Assembly (NCBI GenBank): GCA_012519065.1
Contig: JAAYQV010000131.1
Span: 1-62,817, forward strand
Origin: Phytoplasma sp.
GTDB lineage: Bacteria; Bacillota_I; Bacilli_A; Acholeplasmatales; Acholeplasmataceae
Direction: 5' to 3'
Length of the DNA stretch: 62,817 bases
The stretch's first letter is position 1. Every line of letters starts with the position of its first letter. A program made the translations under genes and the position numbers. The notes under the pieces are model-generated. The model saw only the letters and a program-made list of their open reading frames with translations. It was not told the origin of the DNA and made no database searches. This document shows, piece after piece, positions 6,579 to 54,433 of this stretch.

Positions 6579-9500
6579 TTATTTTAGTTTTAAAATATCA
6601 TCTACTATTTCCCAATTTTCATTTGATACAATATTAGGGAAATTAGTTGTCCAGAAGTTTTCATTAACACCTGACATATCTTCTAAAAGAGTGTCTGACG
6701 GAATGTTTAATCCACCACCTGCTTGAGTGTTTGTCCCCCATACGTTGACTAATGGCTCTAACTGAACATCTAGGTTACCAGCTATATGCCCATAACTTCT
6801 ATTAGATTCCGGTATTCTTTCAATGTTATTTCTATTATTGATAAAAACATCTTTGAAGAATCCATAGGTTGTTTCACTATTTACTTTTCCTATGAGACCA
6901 CCCATATTTCTGTTTGACGTAATTTCTGTATTAATGATTACAATTCTTTGCCCTGTAGCTATACCGCGAAGTCTTGCGATTAATACAGCAACCATATCAT
7001 CTGTTGACTCAACATTAACGGTGTGAATATAAATATCTTCAACGTGTGCTTCTGCTTTTTGATCAACACTTCCTAATAATCCACCTGTATTACCATTAGC
7101 ATATACAGTTGAATCCGTCAGTGTAATATTTTTAGCATAAACTGTAGAACCTGTTTCAATACGCCCTACTAATAAACCAGCGTAATTTCTATTTGAGTCT
7201 AAACTGCTATTTTTAATAACTATATTTTCAAACCAAGCTTTACCAAATGTTCTTCCTGCAACAATACCAGAACGGTCTCCTGCTTTAACAGAACCTGATA
7301 AATTACCATCTTCATCATAAAGTGGTTTATCTGCTACTTGAATCTTAACATTATCAAAAATAACATTTTTAATAATACCACCTTCTACAGTATGGAATAC
7401 ACCACCAGAAAATCGATGGATATCAATGTTTTTTAAAGTAAAGTTTTGTCCATCAAATATACCTTGGAATCTATTAAGTCCACCATCTAAATATGGGAAG
7501 TTACGATTGTAGTCTGTGAAATCTAAATCGTTTTGTAGTATATAATAATTGCCTCTTGTTTTCCATGACATCAACATATCAAAAAAATCATTAACAGTTT
7601 CAATTTTTACAACTACTTCTTTTTCTATCTTATGGGTAACCACTGGGCTTACTTTGCCATTTTCCAGTGTCACAAAGTGGATGAAATCTAAATTATTCGT
7701 TTTTTCTTCTTCTAATTGAATTGTTGTAGAAGTTATTGGTTTGACGATAGTGTCTGTATGATTTATGATTTCTTCTGCCGTTAAAGTTTGTGTATTTGTA
7801 AATAGATAATATAAACTACCATCTGCTACATAAACATCTAAACTAACATCAATGGTTTCGTTAAATTCATTTGAAATATTATAATCATATATTTCGTTTG
7901 GAAGGCTTTCATCATAGACAACATATTTAATTTCATATTCAAATTGATCCCATTCATGAATGAGTGATTGAATAAGGTATACCATCTTATAAACGCCTGG
8001 TACATCTGTTTCAATATTATGATCAATGTAATATGTAAAATCTTTTTCTATTTTCAATTCTTTTCCTGTATAAAAATTATATAATTTAGGTGTTTGTATC
8101 GTAACCGATTGTCCAAGTCTACTTAATACTGTTTCTAGGTTTTCTACACGATCTTGATCAATTTTTACACCCGGAATGAGTGTTGATGAATCTATTTGAC
8201 CTGTTATGTCTAACCAGTTAAAACCTTCTATTTTACCTACGCCTATTGGATTATCTTTAAATATTTTAGTTAATTTAACCGCTTCATCTACTTGGTATTC
8301 ATATGGCACTTCTTGGTAATTTCTAAAGTAGAAATCAAGATCATAATCAATATTGGTATTAGACTTATGCCATGGATTGTTATATGTCTGATCTGTACTA
8401 GACCCTAGATAGTAACTAGAATCTAATCTATATTCACTATCCTTTACTAAGTATCTTCCTGTAAAATCAGGATCTAGATTACTTGCTTGGTGTGTTTTAA
8501 CTGCTTCATTTACTCCTACAAAACGGCTGTTTTCCATTAAAATTGCTCCTTGTTCTGTAGGTACTAAACCTTGGCTAATCACTTTCATCCCTAAGGTTCT
8601 TAACGGATAGATTTGAGATGAATCTAAAACAACGTTATACATATGGATATCTCCACGTCTTAATCTAGGGAATCTATCTTGTAAGTTTTTAGCATAAATG
8701 TGGTGCATAGTTATAGTAATATTTTCAAAACCAATACCACCTTCAGTGTTCCCAAAGTTAAATCCTTTTTTTTGCGCAGCAGCTACTGTCATGATTTGTT
8801 CTTTGGTTAAATTATTTCTTAGTTCATTATAATAAGGATACTTACTTCTATTTGCTTCTAATTCATCAAATTGAGCTTTAATAAAGTCATCTGGGACAAA
8901 ATCTAGGTCCAACCACGATAAAGTAACGTTTTGAACATTGGTTTTAGCATCCACTATACCATCATAAGCTGTGTTAAAGGTTATATGGTCTAGCCAAACA
9001 CCATCGACATTTTCTAAGGTGAAATAATCCCAGTCATTTACCTTATAATCCCCTTTATCTTCCTCATCCCATTCCCATATGCCTGTCATTTTTAAGTTTC
9101 TAAAGACAATGTCTTTTGAATTACCTTTAATATGCACAGTTAAATGATTAAGTGTTATACCTTCATCAGAATATATCATCAAACCTTCTCGTTGATCAAT
9201 AATTAATTGCCCTACACCAGTTTCTTTTAATATTGGGTGAAGTAATGGTGTGTTTTGATTTTTACGATAATAATATCCTCTCATATAATCTTTATCTATT
9301 TCATCTTCTGTTTTACCAGCTTTAATTAATTGCTCTTTAACATAGTTTGACCCCATGTTTAAATCTTTATTTATTTTAATGACAACATTTTTAGTTGTTC
9401 GTGTGTTTTTTAAAACTTCTAAAAATTCTACTTCGTTATTAACTTCATAGAAATTTTCTACTTGATTTTTTCTATTGCTAACGCTTAAAGATGCAAAACC

Positions 9501-9860
9501 CGCAGGATTTTTAAATACTTCTGTATCTTTTGCTAAGTTATCCCATGTTTTAGCAACCGTCTTGTATTCATAAAATTCTACTTTTCCATCTAATTGTATA
9601 ACTAGTTCTAAGGTAATTTCAACATCTTCATCTGGTCTAATAAATCTGCCTTCAGATGATAAAATTTGGCTATGGCTTGAAATCCAGCTTAATTTTGCCG
9701 TAGGATATAAATCCGTCTTTCTTGGTAACTCTATATTCTCAGTAATTTCCTTCGGGATTTCAATACTCTTATATATTTTGTCAAACTTTGTGTTTTTACC
9801 ACACGCAGCTATTATGAACAAAAAAGATATTGAAATAATAAAGCCTAATACTTTTCTCAT
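6579..9860 (-). CDS. Multidomain surface lipoprotein with a PL1 pectate lyase domain, Ig-like modules and a C-terminal GLUG-like beta-helical repeat region
   Basis: Signal peptide with lipobox IAAC; PL1 motifs VWLDH, DGIVD, NVTLSW, RFPRLR, HMYN; C-terminal repeats GIVAG/GLLVG/GGLLG/GGLIG. Confidence 0.85.
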   Translation of the reverse strand: MRKVLGFIISISFLFIIAACGKNTKFDKIYKSIEIPKEITENIELPRKTDLYPTAKLSWISSHSQILSSEGRFIRPDEDVEITLELVIQLDGKVEFYEYKTVAKTWDNLAKDTEVFKNPAGFASLSVSNRKNQVENFYEVNNEVEFLEVLKNTRTTKNVVIKINKDLNMGSNYVKEQLIKAGKTEDEIDKDYMRGYYYRKNQNTPLLHPILKETGVGQLIIDQREGLMIYSDEGITLNHLTVHIKGNSKDIVFRNLKMTGIWEWDEEDKGDYKVNDWDYFTLENVDGVWLDHITFNTAYDGIVDAKTNVQNVTLSWLDLDFVPDDFIKAQFDELEANRSKYPYYNELRNNLTKEQIMTVAAAQKKGFNFGNTEGGIGFENITITMHHIYAKNLQDRFPRLRRGDIHMYNVVLDSSQIYPLRTLGMKVISQGLVPTEQGAILMENSRFVGVNEAVKTHQASNLDPDFTGRYLVKDSEYRLDSSYYLGSSTDQTYNNPWHKSNTNIDYDLDFYFRNYQEVPYEYQVDEAVKLTKIFKDNPIGVGKIEGFNWLDITGQIDSSTLIPGVKIDQDRVENLETVLSRLGQSVTIQTPKLYNFYTGKELKIEKDFTYYIDHNIETDVPGVYKMVYLIQSLIHEWDQFEYEIKYVVYDESLPNEIYDYNISNEFNETIDVSLDVYVADGSLYYLFTNTQTLTAEEIINHTDTIVKPITSTTIQLEEEKTNNLDFIHFVTLENGKVSPVVTHKIEKEVVVKIETVNDFFDMLMSWKTRGNYYILQNDLDFTDYNRNFPYLDGGLNRFQGIFDGQNFTLKNIDIHRFSGGVFHTVEGGIIKNVIFDNVKIQVADKPLYDEDGNLSGSVKAGDRSGIVAGRTFGKAWFENIVIKNSSLDSNRNYAGLLVGRIETGSTVYAKNITLTDSTVYANGNTGGLLGSVDQKAEAHVEDIYIHTVNVESTDDMVAVLIARLRGIATGQRIVIINTEITSNRNMGGLIGKVNSETTYGFFKDVFINNRNNIERIPESNRSYGHIAGNLDVQLEPLVNVWGTNTQAGGGLNIPSDTLLEDMSGVNENFWTTNFPNIVSNENWEIVDDILKLK

Positions 9861-27632: not shown

Positions 27633-27659
27633 AAAAACTTGCCCTTTAAAGGACAAGTT
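27633..27659 (-). terminator. Intrinsic terminator after the GH28 gene
   Basis: AACTTGCCCTTT/AAAGGACAAGTT hairpin with U-tract. Confidence 0.75.
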
Positions 27660-27664
27660 CTTTC

Positions 27665-29215
27665 TTATTCATTACTAAAACTTTTGACACTTTCTAAAAG
27701 AATTGCTTCGTGATTTTTTGTATCAACGCCTTTTACATTAACGTTTTTCAAAACAACTTCATCAACGTGTCTAAATTGTAATCCTGCTTTAAGTTGTGGT
27801 TCTTGAAAGCTCATCATAGCAGGGATAAATGGCTTAGCATCGTCTGCAAAATTAATATCTACATTTTCAATTGTAATAGATTTAATTGGTTGTTCTGGTA
27901 GTCCGTAAAAGAAACCAGCTGCAGCATGTGCATCATCACATTTCATATCTTTAAATACAAATTTTCCTAAATAAGGAGTTCTTTGATCTAATGGTAAATG
28001 TTCTTTACTCCAAACATATTCTGTCTTGCCATCTGGGTCACAATAGTAATACATATTCATAACAAGAGGTGTCAAGACTTCTTTCATATATATGTTCTCA
28101 AATGTGATTCCGTCTATCACAGCGGACTCTCCACGCCCTCTTCTTGTTTTAATTCTAAGGCCTCTATCTGTTTTATAAAAGTAACATTGAGTCACTGTAA
28201 GGTCTTTAACACCGCCGCTCATTTCGCTGCCTAAAACAACCGCTCCATGACCATAAGCCATATAGCAGTTACGTACTGTCATATTAGACGTTGGTTTGCG
28301 ATATTTCATACCCATATCATATTTACCAGACTTGATTGCTATACAATCATCACCTACTGAAAAGTTAACACCGATGACATTAACATAATCACAACTTTCA
28401 GGATCACATCCATCAGTATTTGGTGAATCTTTAGGGCTAATTAATTTCATATCAATAAAATCAATGTAAGAACTAAAATATGGGTGTAGATTCCAAGATG
28501 GTGTATTGGTTACAGTCACACCTTGCATACCGATGTTAGAACAATTTGATAAGAAAACTCCTTTTGGTCTCCAAGCAATTCTTCTAACTTTTGCATCTAC
28601 CCACCAATCTGAATTTTGAGCATTTGCATCAATGATTCCTTCACCAATGATTTTAACGTTTGAAACTTCTACTCCGGTGATGATACTTGCGTATGTTTCA
28701 GATGGTGTTCCTTCCCAGCTTGCTAATTCAAGTAATGTGTCATCTGCTTTTTTAATTTGAGCTGGTAAAATTGGATATTTATGGCGATCGGTTTCTCCAA
28801 GTAAAGTTGCTCCTTTAACTAATTCAATAGTTAAGTCACTTCTTAGGAATAATGGTTTTACCCAATAGGTTCCTTCTGGAATTAAAACTCTACCGTTTTT
28901 AGGTACAGTTAGGATGGCGGTTTGAATTGCAATCGTATCATCATGAACGCCGTCACCTTTTGCTCCATAATCTTTAACGTTTACAGATGCTGATTCGAAG
29001 TCGGTTTTACATTTTAAGATAAAGTCTCCAACTTTAATTTCATACTCAGTATCAGGGTTTAAGTTATAGATTGAAAACACATTCGTATTGTGTTTTTCTA
29101 ATTTTTTCTCTCCGTTTACAAACACATCATAAGTTTCTTTTGAAAAATAAATATCTTTATTTTCTAACTCAAAAGTAAAACTTCTTGATGAACTAAAAAC
29201 TACATTAAACTTCAT
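27665..29215 (-). CDS. GH28 (exo-)polygalacturonase with an N-terminal FN3-like domain, cytoplasmic
   Basis: GH28 motifs SPNTDG, GDDC, GHG, RIK; LNPDTEYEI FN3-like segment; no signal peptide. Confidence 0.93.
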   Translation of the reverse strand: MKFNVVFSSSRSFTFELENKDIYFSKETYDVFVNGEKKLEKHNTNVFSIYNLNPDTEYEIKVGDFILKCKTDFESASVNVKDYGAKGDGVHDDTIAIQTAILTVPKNGRVLIPEGTYWVKPLFLRSDLTIELVKGATLLGETDRHKYPILPAQIKKADDTLLELASWEGTPSETYASIITGVEVSNVKIIGEGIIDANAQNSDWWVDAKVRRIAWRPKGVFLSNCSNIGMQGVTVTNTPSWNLHPYFSSYIDFIDMKLISPKDSPNTDGCDPESCDYVNVIGVNFSVGDDCIAIKSGKYDMGMKYRKPTSNMTVRNCYMAYGHGAVVLGSEMSGGVKDLTVTQCYFYKTDRGLRIKTRRGRGESAVIDGITFENIYMKEVLTPLVMNMYYYCDPDGKTEYVWSKEHLPLDQRTPYLGKFVFKDMKCDDAHAAAGFFYGLPEQPIKSITIENVDINFADDAKPFIPAMMSFQEPQLKAGLQFRHVDEVVLKNVNVKGVDTKNHEAILLESVKSFSNE

Positions 29216-29780
29216 CGTTATCATTTCCTTTGTTTTCTTTATATTTGCTTTTCAATTTAATAATTAGTTTTTTCACTCTAAACCAAATAAAATCCACCAG
29301 TAAAAAATACAACGCAAAACTAAATGGTTCTATACTATTAGGATATCCTGTAAACATACCTGAAAGTGTTGGTATCCCTATTGCTATAGATAAACTATTT
29401 ATTCCATAATTTAGGAAAAACGTCGCAGTTATAATTATGATCACATACAACATAGTAGAAAATAAGCTTAATGCTGATTTTCTTTTTATATAACCAAAAG
29501 GTAGATAGTCATAGGTAGGTGTTTTATCATTATTCATCCATATTATGATATTATTTGCAATAAATTCCATCATAAGTGTAGCGATAAGCACCATTGCTAA
29601 TTTTTCAGTTGATCCATCTTGACTCGCAAATTGTGGCGTCATATGAGATAGTAAAAAAGACGCACCTATTACCCAATATTTTAAAAACCCGATTTTTACA
29701 CCAGGTTTTATTTTTGAAAATTTATCTATACTATATGGATCAGGAATTTGATTTGGATCAATATCCTTTTTATTCTTCAA
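29205..29780 (-). CDS. Uncharacterised membrane protein (about 4 TM)
   Basis: Hydrophobic segments; overlaps both neighbouring genes. Confidence 0.75.
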   Translation of the reverse strand: MKNKKDIDPNQIPDPYSIDKFSKIKPGVKIGFLKYWVIGASFLLSHMTPQFASQDGSTEKLAMVLIATLMMEFIANNIIIWMNNDKTPTYDYLPFGYIKRKSALSLFSTMLYVIIIITATFFLNYGINSLSIAIGIPTLSGMFTGYPNSIEPFSFALYFLLVDFIWFRVKKLIIKLKSKYKENKGNDNDEV

Positions 29781-30282
29781 TTTTTACATACTTCCAATCT
29801 ACATAAATCCATGATAATACATTTGATACAATAACAAACACTAATGATGTTCCTAAGATAACCATAGAAATAATGGCTGTATTTGTTATAGAGTAAGCAG
29901 CTTGTCTACTTGGTTCTGTAATGAATACTACTACATATAAAATGTAGATAATTGTATGAATTAATGTTATAGCCGTACTCATAAATAACGTTTTTGGCGA
30001 CTGTGCTTTAGAAAATGAAAACGAAAAGAACAGTAATATTAATATTAATAAGTTCATAGCAAACAAGTAAAATGATGCCATATAATTAGTTAAATGATAT
30101 AAAGAAGCAATATGTGCTTCCCATTTGAAATTTCCAATTGAAAAGTCTAAAGTCCCATTAACCAAAAATGTCGCTACAATCATTAAATAAAATGGAATAT
30201 TTTGTTTTGAAAATGAGTACCATCTTGAAACTTTTTCCTTGAAAGTTCTTTGAATGTGGCTCGGTTTATCGTTGTTTTGCAT
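29770..30282 (-). CDS. Uncharacterised membrane protein (about 4 TM)
   Basis: Four hydrophobic segments; start MQNNDK at 30282 follows a GGAGG RBS inside the 3' end of the ATPase gene. Confidence 0.75.
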   Translation of the reverse strand: MQNNDKPSHIQRTFKEKVSRWYSFSKQNIPFYLMIVATFLVNGTLDFSIGNFKWEAHIASLYHLTNYMASFYLFAMNLLILILLFFSFSFSKAQSPKTLFMSTAITLIHTIIYILYVVVFITEPSRQAAYSITNTAIISMVILGTSLVFVIVSNVLSWIYVDWKYVKIEE

Positions 30283-31366
30283 AAATTCTTTCCTCCGTTT
30301 CACTATCAAAGAAGTAAACATCTTTAATATCAAATCCATATACAACTTCTTCATTTTCATGAATAGTTTCTCTAGCGCTTGTTTTTGCAATGACTTGTTG
30401 GTTATCTACATTAAAATAAATTAATGCTTCAGCACCAAGTAATTCAAAGTTTGTTGCTTTTGATACTAAGCCTTTAGCATATTGTGTTTTTCTTTCAACT
30501 CTAATTGCTTCAGGTCTAATTCCTATGGTGACATCTTTACCATGATATGGTTTTAATGATTCCGATACTTCTTTATCGTTGATTTCTACTTGGTTATCTG
30601 AAAAGAGTAATTTACCATCTTCGCTTATTTTTGCTTTAAATATATTCATTGGTGGTGTTCCAATAAAACTTGCTACAAATAAGTTTGCTGGGTCTTTATA
30701 TACTTCTGTTGGTGTCCCTACTTGTTGTATATAGCCATCTTTCATGATCACTATTCTATCTGCTAAGGTTAAAGCTTCTATTTGGTCATGGGTTACATAA
30801 ATCATAGTGGTGCCTAATTGGTGATGTAAAAGTTTTAATTCTTTTCTCATCGTTCCTCTTAATTTTGCATCTAGGTTTGATAGTGGTTCATCAAATAAGA
30901 AGATTTTAGGATTTCTTACCATGGCACGACCTACTGCTACACGTTGACGTTGCCCACCAGATAGATTAGCTGGCTTTCTATTTAAATATGGTGTTAAACC
31001 TAATATATTAGCTGCCCACATCACTCGTTGGTGAATATAGTCACTATTCTCTTTTCTTAACACTAAACTAAATGCCATGTTGTGGTATACCGTCATATGT
31101 GCATATAATGCATAGTTTTGAAACACCATCGCTATATCTCTATCCTTTGGTGCTCTTTCTGTCATATCCTCATCATCTATTAATAAGCTTCCTGATGAAA
31201 TTTCTTCTAATCCTGCCACCATTCTTAGGGTTGTGGATTTTCCACATCCTGATGGACCTACTAAAACGATGAATTCACCATCTTTGATTTCTAAATTAAA
31301 ATCATAGACTGCTTGAACCCCGTTGGGATATATTTTATTGATGTTTTTTAAACTCATTGTTGCCAT
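30266..31366 (-). CDS. CUT1 sugar ABC transporter ATP-binding subunit (MalK/MsmK/UgpC type)
   Basis: GPSGCGKST, VFQNYALY, LSGGQRQR, DEPLSNLD, C-terminal TOBE region (GIRPE). Confidence 0.95.
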   Translation of the reverse strand: MATMSLKNINKIYPNGVQAVYDFNLEIKDGEFIVLVGPSGCGKSTTLRMVAGLEEISSGSLLIDDEDMTERAPKDRDIAMVFQNYALYAHMTVYHNMAFSLVLRKENSDYIHQRVMWAANILGLTPYLNRKPANLSGGQRQRVAVGRAMVRNPKIFLFDEPLSNLDAKLRGTMRKELKLLHHQLGTTMIYVTHDQIEALTLADRIVIMKDGYIQQVGTPTEVYKDPANLFVASFIGTPPMNIFKAKISEDGKLLFSDNQVEINDKEVSESLKPYHGKDVTIGIRPEAIRVERKTQYAKGLVSKATNFELLGAEALIYFNVDNQQVIAKTSARETIHENEEVVYGFDIKDVYFFDSETEERIYAKQR

Positions 31367-32592
31367 TATTTTTCACCCAACTCTCTAATATGTTTTTCAA
31401 GTTTAGTTGTCTTAATGTAGTTAATTACTCCTCCTGCAATTTGTAATGCAATAGCAGCAACCATTAATATGACTACGATAATATATCTTGACGTTGGTAA
31501 CCCACCTGGAGCAACCGTATCAATATTATTTATGTAGTTTAGATACTGATTATGGAAAATAGTTGGAACAAAGAAAATTCTAGCAACGTTAATTACTGCA
31601 AGAACAAACATCCCTATTGACCATTTTTTCTGATAGTTTTTCATTTTTTCAGCACCTAAGAAGGTAGCTAGTAACATAATAATTAATAACGCGATATCAA
31701 TAGCAACTTGGTAGTTTGGGTTAACTCGTAATTCATTTGCATCATTTGTAAATGAACTATATGTGATACTCATAAAACCTGCAATCGCTAATAACACTAC
31801 AGAAAGCAATGCCAACCAATAAGATGATTTATTAGCTTGATATCTCATCTTATCTACTTTAATATCTTCAATATCCGTTAATTGTGCAACATCAATCTTA
31901 ATTTCTTCTGAATCAAAATCAATTGCTGATTTTTTATCTTGAATCACTTCAATTTGTCCTAACTCTATTTTTCTCATTACATCAGAATAAGTTTCTTTTT
32001 TTACATTTAAATATAAGTATTTTTGAACCATTACTCCAATTGCAGCTAAGTTTGCTAGAATTGTTAAAGCACTAGCGGCATACCCTAATTTAAAAGTTAA
32101 TCTAACACCTTCAGCAGAACTTCCGTTTATTCTAAATAGACGTTCCCATAATGATGCATTAGCAGGATCGTTCAGCAACGCTAACATTGAAGTTTCTACT
32201 TCACGTATTGTGATTATATATACAATAGAAACAGTAGCAAACAATAGAAGCACAATACCTAAAGTTATAAAGTTTGTTAAGTAATACTTCGTTCTATTAG
32301 CAGATCCAAAAAGCATGGAAAAAGCCACCGAAAGAACTAATCCTAAACTTAAATTAAACATCAATATATTTTTGCTATTAACAGTATCTTTAACATAATT
32401 TGAAACCGCATTGTTTCCCATTTCTTGAGAAATTGACCATGAAGTTCCAAATCCAATAGCATAAAGAAAAGCTACAATGCTAGCTACTAAAAACAAACCA
32501 AATGAGGCTTTTTGCCATTTAGTTTTTATAGTAAATTTTGTCCTACTCCAAAAATTTGAGAAAAAGTTATTTTGTTGGGTCCTAGTTTTCAT
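31366..32592 (-). CDS. Uncharacterised membrane protein, about 8 TM arranged as two 4-TM modules
   Basis: Two hydrophobic blocks separated by a charged linker of about 60 aa; TAATG coupling to the ATPase gene. Confidence 0.8.
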   Translation of the reverse strand: MKTRTQQNNFFSNFWSRTKFTIKTKWQKASFGLFLVASIVAFLYAIGFGTSWSISQEMGNNAVSNYVKDTVNSKNILMFNLSLGLVLSVAFSMLFGSANRTKYYLTNFITLGIVLLLFATVSIVYIITIREVETSMLALLNDPANASLWERLFRINGSSAEGVRLTFKLGYAASALTILANLAAIGVMVQKYLYLNVKKETYSDVMRKIELGQIEVIQDKKSAIDFDSEEIKIDVAQLTDIEDIKVDKMRYQANKSSYWLALLSVVLLAIAGFMSITYSSFTNDANELRVNPNYQVAIDIALLIIMLLATFLGAEKMKNYQKKWSIGMFVLAVINVARIFFVPTIFHNQYLNYINNIDTVAPGGLPTSRYIIVVILMVAAIALQIAGGVINYIKTTKLEKHIRELGEK

Positions 32593-32621
32593 AATTTAAT
32601 ACACCTCGTTGTTTATTAAAA

Positions 32622-32666
32622 TAAATATGAGTGAGGATAGCTAGGCTATCCTCACATACATATTTA
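32622..32666 (-). terminator. Long hairpin after the solute-binding protein gene (stabiliser or partial terminator)
   Basis: GTGAGGATAGC-tag-GCTATCCTCAC extended by TAAATATG/CATATTTA. Confidence 0.7.
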
Positions 32667-32680
32667 CTTATTGTTTTTAA

Positions 32681-34765
32681 TTAGCTATTTTTTTGTGCTG
32701 TTTCGTATGCACTTCTATATGCTGCAATAAACGCATCATATTCACCAGTAGTTTTAACTAAAGCTTCATATGCTGCTCTTGTTAATGTGTCATTTGTTCC
32801 AGCGAATCCATTTAATACTAAAATAATAAGTTTATTGTTATTTGTATGAGATCTGAATGTAGTTGTTCCAATTTCAGTAGTATCTACTTGAGTTAATGGT
32901 AAGTTAGTTGGAACTGCTCTAAAGAATGGATCTTCATTACCTTGTAATCCCACTAATTTGAATGTACCTGCTTGAACTGCTTTATTAATTCTTCCGATAC
33001 CAGCAAGACCATCTTCTGATAATGTTTGATATTCTAATCCTAAACTACGTACGTGTCCAATTGGCATTGTAGCTCCTAAGAAACCACGTAAGTATTTAAC
33101 CATGTTTCCACCACCAAGAGTGTTTAATTCCTTCATAGCTTCTGGTTTATATTTAGAAACGATTTCACCTGGTTTGTATTCAAATGTTTCATCGCTTAAC
33201 CACTCAGATGGTCCATATAAGTGAATTGAACCAATTGCATCTTTATTTGATAAATCATATAGTCCATCAACAATTTTTAATACGTTTTCAAGTTTTTTAG
33301 CATCTTTAGCAACTGATATTGGAATTCCCCAACCTTCAGGTTTTAATGCACGAACTGATTCAGAGAAGTGGAAATATCCTGTTTTTTCTGACTTGTCTGC
33401 CCATTTAACAACTGGAGGTAAGATAGCTTGGAATTTAAAGTCTTTATCTTTTGATCTACCACCTTTTTCAGCACCAGTTAATGCATCTGGAGTTGATGAT
33501 CCGTTATAATCATAAGTTAAGAAGCCCCACTCACCATTTGCACCAGTTAAGTATTCTTGACGGAAGTTTATTTTATCTGGACCAGCAACGTTATTTGGGA
33601 TTAATCCATCTTTATGCATATTTGCTAAGTTATCAAATGCATCCATTATATAAGCACCATCGTTATATCCACGTGCATCATGTAATTCTCCATCTTTATC
33701 AAAGAATAACCATTCATTTCTAGCTCCAACACCGCGTAGACCAAACATTTCTAAACCACGTGCATATTGACGTTGACGGTTATCAGCTTTTTCACGTTGG
33801 AAATAAACTTGAATGTTTTTAGCATCTTTTTCTGGAGTAACAGTAGATAATAAGAAGTCTTCGTTAGCTTTAACTAAATGCATTAAAGCAACCATTTCAT
33901 CTGTATCATATGATGCGTCAACACCAGCAAATACATCTGACCATTTAGCATATCCTGATTCTGCTAATGTTCCATAAGTGTTTTCTAGGTAAACTTTAAA
34001 AGCGTCTAACATAGCTTGACCAGTAGTTGCACCTAATTCTCTTAATACTACAACTGGGTTTTTAGCTCTGTTTTTTTCTACTTTTCTTGTACCAGTATCA
34101 CTATTTGCAACAGTTACTGAGTATGTTTCTTCTCCTGCTGGGCTTTGTAATACATAGTTAGTACCAACTGTATATGCTTTAGTTGAACCTTCACCTTTGT
34201 CTGAATCTAATAATTTTTCAATCCAGTCAATTCTTGCTAAGAACATATGTTCTAATTCGTCTTTACCATCAAAATACGGTGTATAGTAAATTTTACCATC
34301 ACCAGCAGTCATAGATAGTTTTGACGCAGGGTCATTTTCTAAGAAAGTTTTTAAGTTTGGCATTTGATCTAGGTAGTCGCTTATTGCAACAAATTGTCCT
34401 GCAACACCAGCCTCAGTAATTTTAGCTCCTGTACCGTTAACTAAGTCAACGTTTTTAAAACCTACAGCTGTTAATCTTTCCCATTGCGCGTCAGTTGATG
34501 TATCTCCTGAGTCAACAACGTCTTTGAACTTAACGCCTAATTTTTCACCAATTGCTTCCCAAACAGGTAAGATATCACCTTTAGTGTATGTCTTATTGTT
34601 TAGTGAAGAAGTATACGGTGTGCTTCCACGGTAACTAATTGAATATTCTTCTGATCCTGACTTGAACCATACTGAAGTTCTAATCGCATCAGAGTCTGAT
34701 CCACCACATGCAGTTAATGTTAAAACTCCTGCAAGAGCAACCAGTAATGAAAATATTTTTTTCAT
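32681..34765 (-). CDS. Large (694 aa) solute-binding lipoprotein of the sugar ABC importer, probably for oligogalacturonides
   Basis: MKKIFS...LTAC lipobox after an AGGAG RBS; CUT1-type motifs ISDYLDQMPNL, DGKIYYTP, RIDWIEKL; genomic context. Confidence 0.88.
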   Translation of the reverse strand: MKKIFSLLVALAGVLTLTACGGSDSDAIRTSVWFKSGSEEYSISYRGSTPYTSSLNNKTYTKGDILPVWEAIGEKLGVKFKDVVDSGDTSTDAQWERLTAVGFKNVDLVNGTGAKITEAGVAGQFVAISDYLDQMPNLKTFLENDPASKLSMTAGDGKIYYTPYFDGKDELEHMFLARIDWIEKLLDSDKGEGSTKAYTVGTNYVLQSPAGEETYSVTVANSDTGTRKVEKNRAKNPVVVLRELGATTGQAMLDAFKVYLENTYGTLAESGYAKWSDVFAGVDASYDTDEMVALMHLVKANEDFLLSTVTPEKDAKNIQVYFQREKADNRQRQYARGLEMFGLRGVGARNEWLFFDKDGELHDARGYNDGAYIMDAFDNLANMHKDGLIPNNVAGPDKINFRQEYLTGANGEWGFLTYDYNGSSTPDALTGAEKGGRSKDKDFKFQAILPPVVKWADKSEKTGYFHFSESVRALKPEGWGIPISVAKDAKKLENVLKIVDGLYDLSNKDAIGSIHLYGPSEWLSDETFEYKPGEIVSKYKPEAMKELNTLGGGNMVKYLRGFLGATMPIGHVRSLGLEYQTLSEDGLAGIGRINKAVQAGTFKLVGLQGNEDPFFRAVPTNLPLTQVDTTEIGTTTFRSHTNNNKLIILVLNGFAGTNDTLTRAAYEALVKTTGEYDAFIAAYRSAYETAQKNS

Positions 34766-34785
34766 GTGTTTTTCTCTCCTTTTTT

Positions 34786-35655
34786 TTATTCTTTTACTCC
34801 ACCTTCGTTGACACCTTGTGACATATACTTTTGAAGTATTGGGTATACAACGATGATTGGAATTATAGATAATACGATAGCTGCATAAGATAGTGAATAT
34901 AAAGAGAACGTCCAATTGTTGATATTATCTGTATTGGATGCATCTCCTACTATGTTACGCAGGATAACTTGTAGTGGATGTTGGTTACTATCTGAAACTA
35001 ATCTCATGTTCCAGAAATATCCATTCCATCTACTTAATGCATAGAATAATGTAACTGTTGCTAATGATGATTTTGACATTGGTAAATAAATGCTTGTTAA
35101 GATTTTCATTTCTCCTGCACCATCAACAATAGCTGCTTCTTCTATTTCTTTTGAAATACCTTGGAAATAGTTTCTTAATAATATAATGTTAAACGCTTGA
35201 ACACCAAAACCATAAATAATACCCCAACGGTTATTAACACCCATTGCAAGGTAGTTTAGATATGTCGGCATAATCCCCGCACTAAACCACATAGTAAAGA
35301 CAATAAAGAAGTTTATTTGTCTTTTGAATAATAGGTTTGATTTTGATAGCGCGTAAGCTGCAAAAATTGTACATACCATACTGAATATTGTTCCGTAGAA
35401 TGTATAGAACAATGTATTTGTGTATGATACCCAGAATTTAGTAGCATAATCCGGATTTGTAAAGAAAGCTTTAAAAGCATCTAAATTTGGATTTACTGGC
35501 CACAATACCACTTGGCCTGATTCAACTGCGATTTTACCACTTAATGCAGCCGATAAACTATATACTAATGGGTATAAAGTAGTAATAGCAAACAATGTCA
35601 CTAATACATATGCAATTATTTTAAATATTAATTCACTTTTATCTAGTCTTTTCAT
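34786..35655 (-). CDS. Carbohydrate ABC permease (LplC/YtcP-like)
   Basis: EAA motif EIEEAAIVDGA; C-terminal YPILQKY..GV..GGVKE. Confidence 0.94.
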   Translation of the reverse strand: MKRLDKSELIFKIIAYVLVTLFAITTLYPLVYSLSAALSGKIAVESGQVVLWPVNPNLDAFKAFFTNPDYATKFWVSYTNTLFYTFYGTIFSMVCTIFAAYALSKSNLLFKRQINFFIVFTMWFSAGIMPTYLNYLAMGVNNRWGIIYGFGVQAFNIILLRNYFQGISKEIEEAAIVDGAGEMKILTSIYLPMSKSSLATVTLFYALSRWNGYFWNMRLVSDSNQHPLQVILRNIVGDASNTDNINNWTFSLYSLSYAAIVLSIIPIIVVYPILQKYMSQGVNEGGVKE

Positions 35656-35676
35656 TTTATCTCTATCTCCCTAGTC

Positions 35677-36765
35677 TTAGAATAATGATGAATCAGATAT
35701 ACGTCTACTAATGAAGTTAGCACCTAAAACCAATGACATAGAAATCAATGAGTTAAATAAGTCAGCAGACGTTGCAATTCCGTAACTAGTAGTTGATGTC
35801 CCAGTAGTTGGGCTACTATTTAATAATCCACCCATACTTAATACATAGGTTGAAATCACTTCTGCTGTTTGTAAGACATATGTTCCTCTACTTTCTGTCA
35901 TTAACATGATTTTTTCATAACCCATGCTTAAGACAGAACCAATACGTAAAATCAAGGTAATTGTTAATGTTGGTGCCATTCCTGGTAATGTTACATATCT
36001 AATTTGTGCCAATTTATTTGCACCATCTATTTTAGCTGCTTCATAACTGGTAGGACTAATAGCCATGATCGCTGCAAAGTATACAATTGATCCGTATCCA
36101 GCACCTTCCCAAATATTTGAAATAATATATATACTTCTAAAATACTTCGGTAAACTTAGGATTTGAACTTGATCGCCAATTACTCCGAAAGCTTGCAGCA
36201 TTTTATTTAATACTCCAGGCCCTACTGAGGTTCCATTCCCCCCCATTAACATCAATCCTAATAAAGAAGTAACAACAACTGTTGAAACAAATTTAGGTAT
36301 ATATGTTAAAACTTGAGTTACTGCACGATATTTAGTGTTTTTAATTTCACTAAACATTAATGCTAAGATGATTGGAATTGGGAATCCAAAGATTAATCCA
36401 TACATACTTAATGTAAAGGTATTTCTAAAGGCTCTCCAAAAGAAAGCTGCCTCTCTACCAAACATAATTGTTTTTAAAGCATAAAACCCATAAAACTGAG
36501 AGTCATAAGTTGAGACTTGTGGGGAATATTGTTTAAAAGCAATTAGAACTTCTGTAATTGGGCGGTATCTCATAAATAAGAAGAATAGCAATACTGGAAT
36601 TAACATGACGTATACTGGCCACGTTTGTCTAAACGTTACCCAATATCTTTTCATCTTAGTTTTTTGCATTTCCTCTTCTATTTCAATTCTTCTAAGTTCT
36701 TCTAGTTCACGTTGAGTAATCCTAGAGATTTCTATTGTGTTAGTTTCTGTACTCATTTTTTTCAT
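35677..36765 (-). CDS. Carbohydrate ABC permease (LplB/YteP-like)
   Basis: FPIPIILAL, PKFVSTVVV, YEAAKIDGA. Confidence 0.94.
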   Translation of the reverse strand: MKKMSTETNTIEISRITQRELEELRRIEIEEEMQKTKMKRYWVTFRQTWPVYVMLIPVLLFFLFMRYRPITEVLIAFKQYSPQVSTYDSQFYGFYALKTIMFGREAAFFWRAFRNTFTLSMYGLIFGFPIPIILALMFSEIKNTKYRAVTQVLTYIPKFVSTVVVTSLLGLMLMGGNGTSVGPGVLNKMLQAFGVIGDQVQILSLPKYFRSIYIISNIWEGAGYGSIVYFAAIMAISPTSYEAAKIDGANKLAQIRYVTLPGMAPTLTITLILRIGSVLSMGYEKIMLMTESRGTYVLQTAEVISTYVLSMGGLLNSSPTTGTSTTSYGIATSADLFNSLISMSLVLGANFISRRISDSSLF

Positions 36766-37321
36766 CTCTTTCCTTTTGTTGTTCTTTTAGGTAGGTTGGC
36801 ATATCTACCAATAGGTTTTTTTGGAAAACTGCGATAACCATAATTATTAGACATATTGGTAGATTCATTACATGTCTTCCCCAATATGTTACAAAAGTTC
36901 CCTCAAATCCTAATAAATTGGATGCTCCTGCTTCAAGCAGTATCATGAGTCCATAAGGAATAATTAAATAAAGCGTTATCATTTTAAATCCGGAGGAAAT
37001 TATATCATGTTTCTTTTTACCTGTCCATATCAAAACTGACGATAGTGATAGATAACCTAATATAAACCCTACTAATTGTGGTGTGCTTGCAAGTATTTCA
37101 TGTCGATAAATAGTAATTTGGGCGATCATCAATAAAACGTTAGACGCAATTCCTAATTTACCCCATCTAATATAAATGATGATGACAAAAATAATTGATG
37201 GCGCAATGTATAGCGTATCTTGTACGAATTTAGACTTCACCCAATATGAAACCACGTCGGCCAAAAGAGCTGTTGCTGTTAAAATCGCTATATCAATTAA
37301 CTTGTATTTCCTCATTGTCAT
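36740..37321 (-). CDS. Uncharacterised membrane protein (about 6 TM), first gene of the ABC operon
   Basis: Hydrophobic 193 aa ORF with a GGTG RBS; overlaps the permease gene. Confidence 0.75.
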   Translation of the reverse strand: MTMRKYKLIDIAILTATALLADVVSYWVKSKFVQDTLYIAPSIIFVIIIYIRWGKLGIASNVLLMIAQITIYRHEILASTPQLVGFILGYLSLSSVLIWTGKKKHDIISSGFKMITLYLIIPYGLMILLEAGASNLLGFEGTFVTYWGRHVMNLPICLIIMVIAVFQKNLLVDMPTYLKEQQKERDEKNEYRN

Positions 37322-37340
37322 CTTGTTTTCACCACGTTTT

Positions 37341-37425
37341 AGTAAGCGTTTTCCCTCTTAATTTTTAAAAAGCGTTGAAACGCTTCCATCATTGATATTA
37401 TATACATTTTTAATAGTAATGTCAA
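37341..37425 (-). promoter_or_regulatory. Sigma-A promoter of the ABC/GH28 operon with two cre/LacI-type operators
   Basis: TTGACA-17-TATAAT (37425-37397); minus-strand operators TGGAAGCGTTTCAA (37375-37388) and GGAAAACGCTTACT (37341-37354). Confidence 0.8.
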
Positions 37426-50982: not shown

Positions 50983-51004
50983 ATGATTAGGGGAAGTGAT
51001 TTTG

Positions 51005-54000
51005 ATGAAATATGGCTTACATGATGAATTAATCTTAAAACTCCATAGTCTTGATAAGACTCTCACAAAGGAAACTGATGAGCATTTAAAGAATGCTTTC
51101 ACTTCTTTAAGTGATGCTTTTTTGACTTTGGGAAATTCTAAAATAGCCTATAATCTAAAGTCTTTTGAAAATACTGATGAAATCATTTTACATAATCAGG
51201 CTTTATTCGATCATCAAACAGTGATTGATAAAACGATTAAGGAATTAAAAAAAGATATCATAACTTTAAGCAATAAGAAACAACTGAAAATTACTTCTTT
51301 GAATAAAGAATATCGAGATAAAACGACTGAAGTATTTAGATTAAAGGAACATATTCCTTCTAAAAATAGCCAATTACTTAATCAAGCAGCTTTAATACAA
51401 CGTCAAGTTGCTGATAAACTACAAACAGAACTTCAAATCAATCAAAAAAGAATTGACACTGAAATTCGTGCTTTAGAAAAAGAGTATGAGCTTTTATTTA
51501 AAGAATCTAAACTTTCATATGATACTTCTTTAAATAAAATTAATACTTCTATTGAAAAAGAAAATACTTCATTTGATGTTTTTGTTAAAGATAGCGCACT
51601 TGAATTAGAAATGTTAAAAAAGCAAAGTGATGATAATCTTTTATCTATTAGACAAACTTTTAATCAAGCAAGCATTAGTTTCAACCATAAAATAAATGAA
51701 TTAAAAACTACCTTACAAAGTGATTTATCTGATTTGAAAATCAGTTATGAGAAGAGTATTGAAATTCTAGAGTCTTCTAAGCAAAAATTACAAGATGATT
51801 ACAATGCTATTCTTAGTCAATCTAACGCTGAATATCAAGAAAAAATGGCAAAACACAATCGTTCTTTTGACCTTTTAAACAAAGAATATGAGGATGCTAT
51901 TTCCAAAATTACTTTTGAATATAATCACGCTATCTCTTTGATTAATAGTAGTCTAAGTTCATATAAAGATAGCATCACAGAACGCATCAAAAGACTTCAA
52001 CAAGAAGGTAGATCTGCAAAAGAAGTTTCCCTTTTAACTAAGCAAGTTAATGCTTATATAAAAAAAGCCTCTAAAGAGGATGCTGAAAAATGGAGAAAAA
52101 ATCAAAGAAAACTATATGATCATGAAATCAACCATTTAAAAAAACTTTATCAATGGCGTATTGAACATGGGAAAATTGATTTAGAACATAAACAAAGTGC
52201 ATTGATGTTAGAACATCACTTAAAGATGAATCTCAAACGTCTTTCCTACCAAAAAGAACACTTTGATTTTGTTTTAGAAAAAAGATCTTTTTTACTTGAA
52301 GCCGCTCACTTAAATAATATTGCACCTTTAGAATCGCAACTCAATTTAGCAGCTAATATTCAAGAAAGAGAATTAAAATTGCTTGCTAATGATACTAGTT
52401 ACTTAATCTTTAAGCATGATTTAAATGTTTTGGAGAAAAAAACAGCACACCAATATAAATTAAATGCTTTAGAATATCAAAAAAATATTTTAACTTACGC
52501 TAGAGAAAGAGATTTAAAAATCAATCAAATAACTTTTCAAATCAAACTAGATTCTTTAAAACAAGAAATGGAATCTTTAGAAAAAAAATATGAGCTTGAA
52601 ATTGAATTATCTAAAGTTGAATATGAGTTATCCATTATAGATGCTACTATTAATACGGATACCGATTTATTTAAACTTAATTTAGAATCTGAACAAAGTA
52701 ATAACTTATTAAGCATTAATATTCAAAAGGAAAAACAAAAAGAAACTGTTTTATCAACTATTCTTAAAGAAAGCATCAACTCTTCACAAACTGAATTATT
52801 TATTTTACAAAGTCTAACTGCTTTTAAAAAAAGCAAGGTCTTTTTTGATTGTTTCACTGATCATTTTAAAGATCAATTCTTCTTATTTCAAAATGCTTTA
52901 GACCAAAACTTAAACATTTATCAACAATATTTGAATATGATCCCCTCCCTTACCTTAGTTTCTGACAAGAATTATGAATACGACCAAGTAATCGCAGGGA
53001 TTTTAGATTATAAAAAACACATGACTACTTTGAATGCAGAAGCCAAATTAACGTTTGATGATCATCTTAATTGTTTTAAAGATGGTTTACTAGAATTGAT
53101 AGATTATTTTTATGAAAGTTATTATCAATTTTTAGAAAAACTTCTTCATTATAATATAAACAGTCTTAAAAACCGTATCATTTTATTAGAACAAAAAAAC
53201 AGTTACTACGATACTAATATTTTAATTAAACGACAAATCATTCAAAAATATAATTATAAAGGTTATGGCAACTCTTCTACTCAGAGAAGCGACTTGTTTA
53301 TGCTTTATAAGTATATTAGAAAAGACGAACGTAACGTCAATATCATTAAGCGTAAAATTCAAAAAAATAGAGTATTAATTGAAAAACTTGAAGCCTCTTT
53401 TACAAAAGATATTCAAACTTTAAAAACTGAACAAAAGAACCTTGTTTTTAAAATAAATGATTTAGAACTTAGTTTTGATAAACACCTATCTTTATTTGAT
53501 AAAAACAGTTTGGAAACTAGTCTTTTTGTTGATAAGCTATTTAAACCAGGAAAATTTATACAAGGTAAAAAACTTCAAATTAAACTAAATACTATTTTTT
53601 CTACTCATAAGAAAAAAAATATCCGTTTAATTCATTTAATTTATCAAGATTTTTTAAAACTTTATGATACTTTTAAAAATCATTTCTTACCAAAAACACA
53701 AAAAGTTTCTTTTGCTTTGTTAAAATTAAATTCAAATATAAGTAAAAATCATCAAAGATACGATGTCTTCCTAAATTTGCTTAACAAAGATTATGAAGAA
53801 ATCATTTATCAATCAAAATCACAAATAGATGCTATTATGAGTGTTGCTTTAGAAGATTTTCTAGCTTCTAAAAAAACCACTAAAGATGAATTATTTAAAG
53901 ATAAGGATGAAATTTTAAAGAAAATTTCTTCTAATACTTTTGATTTAAATGCCCGTTTAGAATTGCTCCAGGAAAATCTAGCTTCTGTGCTTTCTTCAAT

Positions 54001-54433
54001 TGAAGCAGAAACTATAAAGCATCATACAACACTAAATCTCGGTTTTAAAAATAGACAAACCAAACTTTCTGAGCACTTGCTTTCAGAAAAAGAAAAATTA
54101 AAAGATATGGAAATTGCTATCAAAGAAAAAAACGATGCCATTCTTATGCAATATGCCAAGAGCCAGAAAAAAAGCATTGCAGAGCTTTCTCATAAGCAAG
54201 CCTCTTTTAAAAAAACAAGTCTTAAAATTGCTAATGATATTCTTTCTTCTGAATCTCATTTAGCTAAAAACTTTAAAAAAACCAAACGATTAAGTGTTAT
54301 AGAAATTTCAAAACTTCAATCTGAGTATAGACAAAAGATACGTGAAAACAAACAATCTGCAAAAAATAGTTATAAAAAAGATTTGTCTGAATTTAAGAAA
54401 AGTTTTAAATTCAAAGAAAAGAAATTAAAATAA
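51005..54433 (+). CDS. Large orphan alpha-helical/coiled-coil protein (about 1140 aa)
   Basis: 3.4 kb open frame rich in K/L/E/Q/S and very poor in Gly/Pro; no Walker motifs and no TM segment; own promoter and terminator. Confidence 0.85.
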   Translation: MKYGLHDELILKLHSLDKTLTKETDEHLKNAFTSLSDAFLTLGNSKIAYNLKSFENTDEIILHNQALFDHQTVIDKTIKELKKDIITLSNKKQLKITSLNKEYRDKTTEVFRLKEHIPSKNSQLLNQAALIQRQVADKLQTELQINQKRIDTEIRALEKEYELLFKESKLSYDTSLNKINTSIEKENTSFDVFVKDSALELEMLKKQSDDNLLSIRQTFNQASISFNHKINELKTTLQSDLSDLKISYEKSIEILESSKQKLQDDYNAILSQSNAEYQEKMAKHNRSFDLLNKEYEDAISKITFEYNHAISLINSSLSSYKDSITERIKRLQQEGRSAKEVSLLTKQVNAYIKKASKEDAEKWRKNQRKLYDHEINHLKKLYQWRIEHGKIDLEHKQSALMLEHHLKMNLKRLSYQKEHFDFVLEKRSFLLEAAHLNNIAPLESQLNLAANIQERELKLLANDTSYLIFKHDLNVLEKKTAHQYKLNALEYQKNILTYARERDLKINQITFQIKLDSLKQEMESLEKKYELEIELSKVEYELSIIDATINTDTDLFKLNLESEQSNNLLSINIQKEKQKETVLSTILKESINSSQTELFILQSLTAFKKSKVFFDCFTDHFKDQFFLFQNALDQNLNIYQQYLNMIPSLTLVSDKNYEYDQVIAGILDYKKHMTTLNAEAKLTFDDHLNCFKDGLLELIDYFYESYYQFLEKLLHYNINSLKNRIILLEQKNSYYDTNILIKRQIIQKYNYKGYGNSSTQRSDLFMLYKYIRKDERNVNIIKRKIQKNRVLIEKLEASFTKDIQTLKTEQKNLVFKINDLELSFDKHLSLFDKNSLETSLFVDKLFKPGKFIQGKKLQIKLNTIFSTHKKKNIRLIHLIYQDFLKLYDTFKNHFLPKTQKVSFALLKLNSNISKNHQRYDVFLNLLNKDYEEIIYQSKSQIDAIMSVALEDFLASKKTTKDELFKDKDEILKKISSNTFDLNARLELLQENLASVLSSIEAETIKHHTTLNLGFKNRQTKLSEHLLSEKEKLKDMEIAIKEKNDAILMQYAKSQKKSIAELSHKQASFKKTSLKIANDILSSESHLAKNFKKTKRLSVIEISKLQSEYRQKIRENKQSAKNSYKKDLSEFKKSFKFKEKKLK

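What the first reader, a model, noticed from the sequence alone, without database searches (positions are those of the whole stretch)
27665..37425. Pectin-oligomer ABC importer with four extra uncharacterised membrane proteins: possible new transporter architecture
Seen: one promoter drives membrane protein (6 TM), permease, permease, an unusually large 694 aa solute-binding lipoprotein, membrane protein (8 TM), ATPase, membrane protein (4 TM), membrane protein (4 TM), GH28. Every unknown gene overlaps or is translationally coupled to a neighbour, and three of them flank the ATPase. Established: a canonical CUT1 importer needs only SBP, two permeases and ATPase. Inference: these are accessory or regulatory subunits, or a membrane scaffold tethering the GH28 or lyase to the importer, in a bacterium with no periplasm or wall. 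This is the best candidate for an undescribed system in the window.
Basis: partly seen in the sequence, partly recalled or inferred. Interest (0 to 1): 0.85.

Follow-up and report, generated by a model that had tools for sequence, protein, structure and literature searches.

The report
Sugar-acid importer with five extra subunits
An ordinary-looking pump for taking up pectin or alginate fragments is encoded, in Acholeplasmatales, Clostridia and spirochaetes, together with five unnamed small membrane proteins in a fixed gene order (four genes here, two being fused), one predicted to fold like a vitamin-transporter subunit, so this branch of a well-studied importer type likely has extra, undescribed parts.

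Summary
Observation confirmed and wider than reported. The core (two permeases, binding lipoprotein, ATPase) is closest to the Sphingomonas alginate importer AlgM1M2SS/AlgQ. The four unknown genes are five protein units: the 408-aa gene fuses two genes (BN, BC) that are separate in most relatives. None has a Pfam or NCBIfam family. In 80 loci picked by permease alone, BN was present in 69/69 scorable loci, BC 67/67, C 60/60, D 59/60, A 69/73; 49 of 54 complete loci have all five in the same order. These permeases form one tree branch; 23 outside permeases, including alphaproteobacterial alginate importers, have none and have shorter binding proteins. A is predicted to have the ECF S-component fold (Z 14.7) yet sits beside this permease in 106 of 107 cases. 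The set also serves alginate loci and occurs in walled Clostridia and spirochaetes, so neither wall-lessness nor GH28 tethering explains it. Best reading (0.6): dedicated accessory membrane subunits of this importer clade. Physical association is inferred from gene linkage and conservation, not shown. No description found in ten literature searches.

The parts
37397..37425 (-). sigma-70-type promoter-like site, TTGACA-17-TATAAT
   Evidence: 12/12 consensus match; function inferred
37376..37389 (-). near-palindrome just behind the -10 box, resembling a CcpA/LacI-type operator (consensus recalled)
   Evidence: not enriched in the window beyond chance
36740..37321 (-). A: 193-aa, 6-TM protein predicted to have the ECF S-component fold
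   Evidence: model pLDDT 92.7; best match ThiT 3rlb Z 14.7, rmsd 3.0 over 163 residues, top 12 rows all S-components; no Pfam/NCBIfam hit
35677..36765 (-). P1: AlgM1-like permease
   Evidence: PF00528; AlgM1 4tqu_M E 9e-66
34786..35655 (-). P2: AlgM2-like permease with a clade-specific conserved N-terminus
   Evidence: AlgM2 4tqu_N E 3e-73; diagnostic L4, E8, K12, A23
32681..34765 (-). 694-aa solute-binding lipoprotein, AlgQ-like, with an insertion of about 90 aa near residues 190-280
   Evidence: AlgQ1 E 5e-11; insertion filled in 15 clade members and absent from 5 canonical controls of 504-539 aa
32631..32655 (-). 11-pair hairpin between SBP and B, likely mRNA-stabilising or attenuating
   Evidence: role inferred
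31366..32592 (-). B: 408-aa fusion of two 4-TM units, BN (about 1-215) and BC (about 233-408)
   Evidence: separate adjacent genes in most relatives; BC model is a four-helix bundle, pLDDT 84, no specific fold match
30266..31366 (-). K: MalK/UgpC-type ATPase with intact Walker A, signature, Walker B and H-loop
29770..30282 (-). C: 170-aa 4-TM protein, no family
29205..29780 (-). D: 191-aa 4-TM protein, no family
27665..29224 (-). GH28 polygalacturonase, PglA-like, with no hydrophobic N-terminus, likely cytoplasmic
   Evidence: PF00295 E 3e-37; NF051860 E 1e-131 but under its cut-off
27633..27662 (-). terminator-like hairpin after GH28

Best explanation
This operon encodes an AlgM-type ABC importer, likely for pectin fragments, and its five small membrane units (A, BN, BC, C, D) are likely dedicated accessory subunits that would pack around the permease pair. 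Shown: the genes, their linkage to one permease branch, the enlarged binding protein, the intact ATPase. From family knowledge: a surface PL1 lyase lipoprotein (window 6579-9860) would cut pectin, the SBP would deliver oligogalacturonides to P1-P2-K2, GH28 would trim them inside, and the flanking uxa/kdu/kdg genes would catabolise them. Inferred: BN, BC and C (never missing in scorable loci) with D would form a belt that contacts the clade-specific N-terminus and first helix of P2 at the cytoplasmic face, next to the operon's own ATPase, helping assembly and coupling. A would be a co-opted S-component fold acting as an optional structural or regulatory partner rather than a vitamin carrier.
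For: Presence by permease-defined loci: BN 69/69, BC 67/67, C 60/60, D 59/60, A 69/73; all five in order in 49 of 54 complete loci. In 151 genomes of the order, 106 of 107 A genes and 93 of 108 D genes lie beside a clade permease; 0 of 36 other permeases have A and 1 has a weak D-like gene. Accessory-bearing permeases are one side of a branch (31 vs 23 rows, SH-aLRT 99). Six plasmid AlgM-like loci at 41-46% identity lack all five. The units stay with P1-P2-K when the SBP gene moves away (L079, L262-L264) and when the enzymes change from GH28 to alginate-type lyases. BN-BC and C-D fusions occur. P2 residues conserved only in this clade include L4, E8, K12, A23 at the N-terminus. The best-conserved residues of A and BC are mostly cytoplasmic (11 and 10 of the top 15). 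RNA-library contigs from two studies cover the genes and bridge A-P1, B-SBP-P2, K-B and GH28-D-C-K.
Against: Sister importers need no such parts: the Streptobacillus tetramer alone is stimulated by SBP plus substrate in liposomes (PMC5430744, passages) and AlgM1M2SS is described as a heterotetramer (PMC8286568, passages). P1, P2 and K here are full length with intact motifs, so nothing obvious is missing. A is absent from 4 loci and was not found in the three such genomes searched; D is absent from L023 and L117, and one D survives beside lyases without the importer (L261). The units are only 22-28% identical across loci against 54-60% for P1, P2 and K. Conservation in BN, C and D is not clearly cytoplasmic. 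Kin loci are not independent, and the linkage may stem from one origin.
Confidence: 0.6

Rival explanations
1. The units form a separate membrane complex that is co-expressed with the importer but does not touch it, for example a second carrier (monomeric uronate, counter-ions such as the calcium that cross-links pectin and alginate) or a sensor.
For: Four units share one 4-TM, N-in/C-in layout and fuse with each other, not with permeases; BN and C show weak profile likeness (hhalign 56%); D has conserved intramembrane W36, G39, E151-P152, D163; the S-component fold also serves receptors and MreD (PMC11109136, parts 1-2 of 8).
Against: The genes are interleaved with the core on both sides of the ATPase in fixed order, were found apart from it only rarely, and P2 has clade-specific conserved residues.
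Confidence: 0.22
2. A membrane scaffold tethers the cytoplasmic depolymerase (GH28 or lyase) to the importer exit; most plausible for D alone.
For: D directly precedes an enzyme in 47 of 56 scorable loci; D is lost in the two loci without such an enzyme next to it (L023, L117) and kept with lyases where the importer is gone (L261).
Against: The partner enzymes belong to unrelated families (GH28 versus DUF4962/heparinase II-III-like and PF05426 lyases); 8 of 60 loci carry neither within the DNA held; simple adjacency explains the losses.
Confidence: 0.1
3. A is a true ECF S-component that imports a vitamin or ion through the genome's shared EcfAA'T module, independent of the sugar importer.
For: Fold match to ThiT, PanT, BioY, FolT and RibU; the genome has an EcfT gene; acidic residue at position 22 in 81% of rows and other polar outer-half residues.
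Against: 106 of 107 copies sit beside the clade permease and no solitary copy was confirmed; no i/i+4 pair of small residues is well conserved in helix 1 (12/16: 0.32/0.16; best 21/25: 0.47/0.61; the AxxxA motif is recalled); invariant residues D10, R52, W53 are cytoplasmic. It says nothing about BN, BC, C, D.
Confidence: 0.06
4. The genes are passengers without a role in uronate use.
For: Low sequence identity among members.
Against: Kept intact and in order across Acholeplasmatales, Clostridia, other Bacilli and Spirochaetes, in pectin and alginate paralogues alike, with invariant residues.
Confidence: 0.02

Closest known systems
Sphingomonas sp. A1 alginate importer AlgM1-AlgM2-AlgS2 with AlgQ1/AlgQ2 (PDB 4TQU)
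   Same: Best solved relatives of P1, P2 and the SBP; uronate-polymer catabolic context with cytoplasmic depolymerase.
   Different: Four-protein core only; binding proteins about 490-540 aa. Here five extra membrane units, SBP 694 aa with a ~90-aa insertion, ATPase gene embedded among the extra genes.
Streptobacillus moniliformis glycosaminoglycan importer Smon0120-0123 (PMC5430744)
   Same: SBP relative in the PDB search (5gub, E 1e-7); acidic oligosaccharide substrate; kdu/kdg genes alongside.
   Different: Cluster list has no extra membrane genes, and the tetramer is active in liposomes.
ECF S-components (ThiT, PanT, BioY, FolT, RibU) and MreD
   Same: Six-helix fold predicted for A; 10-15% identity is usual within the fold.
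   Different: A is tied to a type I sugar importer operon with no EcfT in it; no family HMM reaches cut-off; conserved C-terminal cytoplasmic helix.
DUF624 (YesL-type) membrane proteins beside CUT1 operons
   Same: Uncharacterised small membrane protein encoded with a sugar ABC importer; one seen in L260 beside a distant permease.
   Different: None of the five families hits PF04854; DUF624 was not found in this genome; one gene rather than five.

Membership tests
CUT1 / AlgM-type type I ABC importer | two BPD_transp_1 permeases related to AlgM1/AlgM2 | tested here: met
CUT1 / AlgM-type type I ABC importer | MalK-type ATPase with intact motifs and OB/TOBE domain | tested here: met
CUT1 / AlgM-type type I ABC importer | family-1 solute-binding protein | tested here: met
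   AlgQ1 E 5e-11 over residues 67-186; no Pfam hit; lipoprotein-like N-terminus seen in the sequence
CUT1 / AlgM-type type I ABC importer | core of four proteins sufficient for transport | not testable with these tools
   needs reconstitution
CUT1 / AlgM-type type I ABC importer | substrate is oligogalacturonide | not testable with these tools
   inferred from GH28, uxaABC, kduID, kdgKA and a PL1 lyase in the window
ECF S-component (protein A) | six-helix S-component fold | tested here: met
   predicted model, Z 14.7 vs 3rlb; first unrelated row Z 7.5; Foldseek E only 0.04 but prob 1.00, TM 0.62
ECF S-component (protein A) | AxxxA motif in helix 1 for docking on EcfT (motif recalled) | tested here: inconclusive
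   present at 12/16 in this protein but small residues in only 32% and 16% of 38 rows; register not fixed by a structural alignment
ECF S-component (protein A) | binds a micronutrient and uses EcfAA'T | not testable with these tools
   EcfT exists on another contig
DUF624 / YesL | PF04854 match | tested here: not met
   0 of 95 members of the five alignments at E 0.01 and 0 of 38 further A rows
claudin/TARP-like tetraspan fold (BC) | fold match standing above unrelated helical bundles | tested here: inconclusive
   best Z 11.6, tied with de novo bundles and soluble proteins; no Foldseek hit at E 0.001

The most novel reading that the evidence does not exclude
A nine-component ABC importer: a type I sugar importer that has recruited an ECF S-component-fold subunit and a belt of four unrelated 4-TM subunits, all required, with an enlarged binding protein, to import long or cation-bridged polyuronate chains. 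It would be a hybrid of two ABC importer classes that are treated as separate.
Probability: 0.3. Interest if true: 0.9.

Novelty: new variant of a known kind. Interest (0 to 1): 0.72.

Why it matters
Type I ABC importers are taught as binding protein, two permeases and an ATPase dimer. A whole branch that keeps five further membrane proteins, one with the fold of the other importer class, would change that picture and gives five unnamed families a testable role. The branch is common in its home order (87 of 151 genomes sampled, 67 of 68 in one family) and occurs in rumen, gut and digester pectin and alginate degraders, including the cultured alginate fermenter Defluviitalea phaphyphila. Anyone moving this importer into a production host would likely need the extra genes.

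Tried and rejected
Complex prediction: B, C, D and P2 together, P2 scored; verdict 'no answer' (0.44, while a control with B replaced scored 0.55); not used for or against binding. Pfam/NCBIfam scans of the window proteins, 133 alignment rows and 21 further homologues gave no family; scattered single-member hits were treated as hydrophobic noise. Atlas searches for BC and D returned only unnamed Bacillota clusters. Mutual homology of the five units: hhalign at most 56% (BN-C), so a common ancestor is not shown. Distance-matrix correlations were 0.82-0.95 for all pairs and cannot single out partners. A mixed alignment of B halves misaligned and was not used. BC was matched clearly in only 1 of 300 genomes of Defluviitalea's class, the centre itself, plus two marginal hits not followed up: the system is patchy in Clostridia. 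The G308 match fell inside a permease and was dropped. RNA contigs cannot show one transcript or rank genes; a control stretch was patchy in the RNA runs and continuous in a DNA run. The cre-like motif is not enriched in the window. Ten paper searches found no description; most subscription papers are not covered, and the Defluviitalea genome paper PMC4725288 was not held, so its cluster map and supplements could bear on novelty.

Full report
Observation. The region holds nine minus-strand genes between a perfect sigma-70-type site (37425-37397) and a terminator-like hairpin (27662-27633): A, permeases P1 and P2, a 694-aa lipoprotein, B, ATPase K, C, D and a GH28. Each unknown gene overlaps a neighbour; the only wide gap is the 88 nt with a hairpin between the binding protein and B. 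uxaCAB lie upstream, kdgA, two kdgK, an IclR regulator, kduI and kduD downstream (named from their translations and Pfam), and a PL1 lyase with a lipoprotein-like start is at 6579-9860. The nearest relative by permease is titled uncultured Acholeplasma sp..

The core. P1 and P2 match AlgM1 and AlgM2 of the Sphingomonas alginate importer far better than any other solved permease (E 9e-66 and 3e-73; next best 8e-5 and 2e-9). The binding protein's best match is AlgQ1. K has all motifs. So the core is a complete AlgM-type importer; pectin oligomers as substrate are inferred from context.

Five units, not four. B's halves are separate adjacent genes in most relatives and fused in a minority. Leave-one-out profiles show that the genes at each of the five positions are true homologues (worst E 3e-11). 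The units are not clearly related to one another. None matches Pfam or NCBIfam; all ten homologues looked up that carry a name are called hypothetical (one was not in the collection). The BC family has 479 representatives at 50% identity. BN, BC, C and D each have four TM helices with both ends inside.

Linkage. To avoid counting by the trait, loci were picked by permease. Of 596 confirmed matches in the species-genome collection the best 80 were kept; the search patterns came from accessory-bearing permeases and a few of these loci had also trained the profiles. Where enough flank was held, BN was present in 69/69, BC 67/67, C 60/60, D 59/60, A 69/73, and 49 of 54 complete loci had all five in the window's order. 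Titles include Acholeplasmataceae, Anaeroplasmataceae, Izemoplasmatales, Lachnospiraceae, Oscillospiraceae, Solobacterium, Defluviitalea phaphyphila, Lacrimispora and Spirochaeta. A metagenome scan reached down to 23% identity: 17 of 80 loci had an accessory gene, all among the closer permeases; many others were too short to score. Six plasmid loci at 41-46% identity, among them Agrobacterium, Devosia and Pseudooceanicola alginate-type clusters and a Monoglobus pectin cluster, have none. On a P2 tree (31 of 120 accessory-bearing rows after thinning, 23 rows without, 30 short-flank rows left out) the two groups are separated by one branch (SH-aLRT 99, quick method); this suggests a single origin, so the loci are not independent tests. 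In 151 genomes of the order, clade permeases (E at most 2e-109; next 3e-82) occur at 108 places in 87 genomes; 106 of 107 A matches (three weak ones dropped) and 93 of 108 D matches lie beside one. Thirteen of the other D matches are on another contig in genomes whose permease also lacks a D neighbour, likely assembly breaks, not checked singly; one is an orphan beside lyases and one a weak match by a distant permease.

What the units travel with. After D comes GH28 in 32, an alginate-type lyase in 15, a second intact ATPase in 6 and another gene in 3 of 56 scorable loci. In L079 and L262-L264 the binding-protein gene has moved while A-P1-P2-BN-BC-K-C-D stays together. The units therefore follow the membrane core, not the enzyme, the binding-protein gene or the cell-wall type. 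A is optional: missing in four alginate loci and not found in the three of those genomes searched.

Structure. A folds confidently (pLDDT 92.7) and its top 12 matches among 48,161 chains are ECF S-components, followed by MreD (Z 14.7 to 10.2; first unrelated row 7.5). Foldseek ranks ThiT first, though with E 0.04; weak sequence hits to YkoE and the ThiT family agree. The fold is known also from MreD and sensor kinases (PMC11109136, abstract and first results sections read), so it does not fix function. Its invariant residues (D10, R52, W53) are cytoplasmic and helix 1 has no well-conserved small-residue pair. BC is a four-helix bundle without a specific match. Clade binding proteins carry an insertion of about 90 residues absent from five canonical ones. 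P2 has twelve positions conserved only in the clade, four of them in the N-terminus and first helix (against 8 control rows).

Expression. Contigs from RNA libraries of close strains cover the genes and bridge most junctions; this shows presence in RNA libraries, not a single transcript.

Mechanism. Most likely (0.6) the units are accessory subunits of this importer clade, a belt of BN, BC, C and D contacting the permeases near the cytoplasmic face and the operon's own ATPase, with A as an optional co-opted S-component fold. The contact is inferred only. Against it, sister importers work as tetramers (PMC5430744, passages; PMC8286568, passages) and nothing in the core looks deficient. A separate co-expressed membrane complex (0.22), an enzyme tether mainly through D (0.1) and an independent ECF role for A (0.06) remain open.

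Novelty. The core is a member of a known family; the five-unit addition was not found in ten paper searches (listed under Tried and rejected). Four earlier notes of this scan describe the same cassette in other genomes; they are unchecked AI notes, were read after this analysis, and are not counted as support.

Noticed in passing
window 6579-9860 (-): 1093-aa lipoprotein with a PL1 pectate-lyase domain and a long unassigned C-terminal part; the likely surface enzyme feeding the importer.
   Followed up: partly
window 50996-54433 (+): 1145-aa ORF with no Pfam match, on the opposite strand to its neighbours, in the lowest-GC part of the window (0.25-0.29).
   Followed up: no
window 37376-37389: cre-like near-palindrome just behind the operon's -10 box, suggesting catabolite repression (consensus recalled).
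   Followed up: partly
L073, L075, L120, L127, L131, L146, L164: A second intact MalK-type ATPase gene lies in or near many clostridial copies of the operon; a heterodimeric ATPase is possible.
   Followed up: partly
L261:8881-9360: Orphan D with a 78-aa possible remnant of C (E 0.02) in front of alginate-type lyases, importer genes gone.
   Followed up: partly
L260:6379-9210: A distant CUT1 operon with a DUF624 gene and a weakly D-like 128-aa gene (E 4e-10), a possible link to YesL-type accessory genes.
   Followed up: partly
L023 and L117: Paralogous operons without D; L023 continues with LacI, GH43 and GH88 genes, L117 lacks the ATPase and continues with a 2094-aa Ig-repeat protein.
   Followed up: partly
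L024:3501-4412, L035:3190-4095, L036:2957-3919: A pectinesterase gene is often encoded divergently just upstream of A in relatives; it is absent at that place in the window.
   Followed up: no
L265-L267: A second, more distant permease pair in these genomes is followed by giant proteins of about 1000-1150 and 1500-1570 aa; not annotated.
   Followed up: no
L025, L092, L095, L097: In some Acholeplasma relatives B has two extra TM helices in the linker and C has about three extra N-terminal helices.
   Followed up: no
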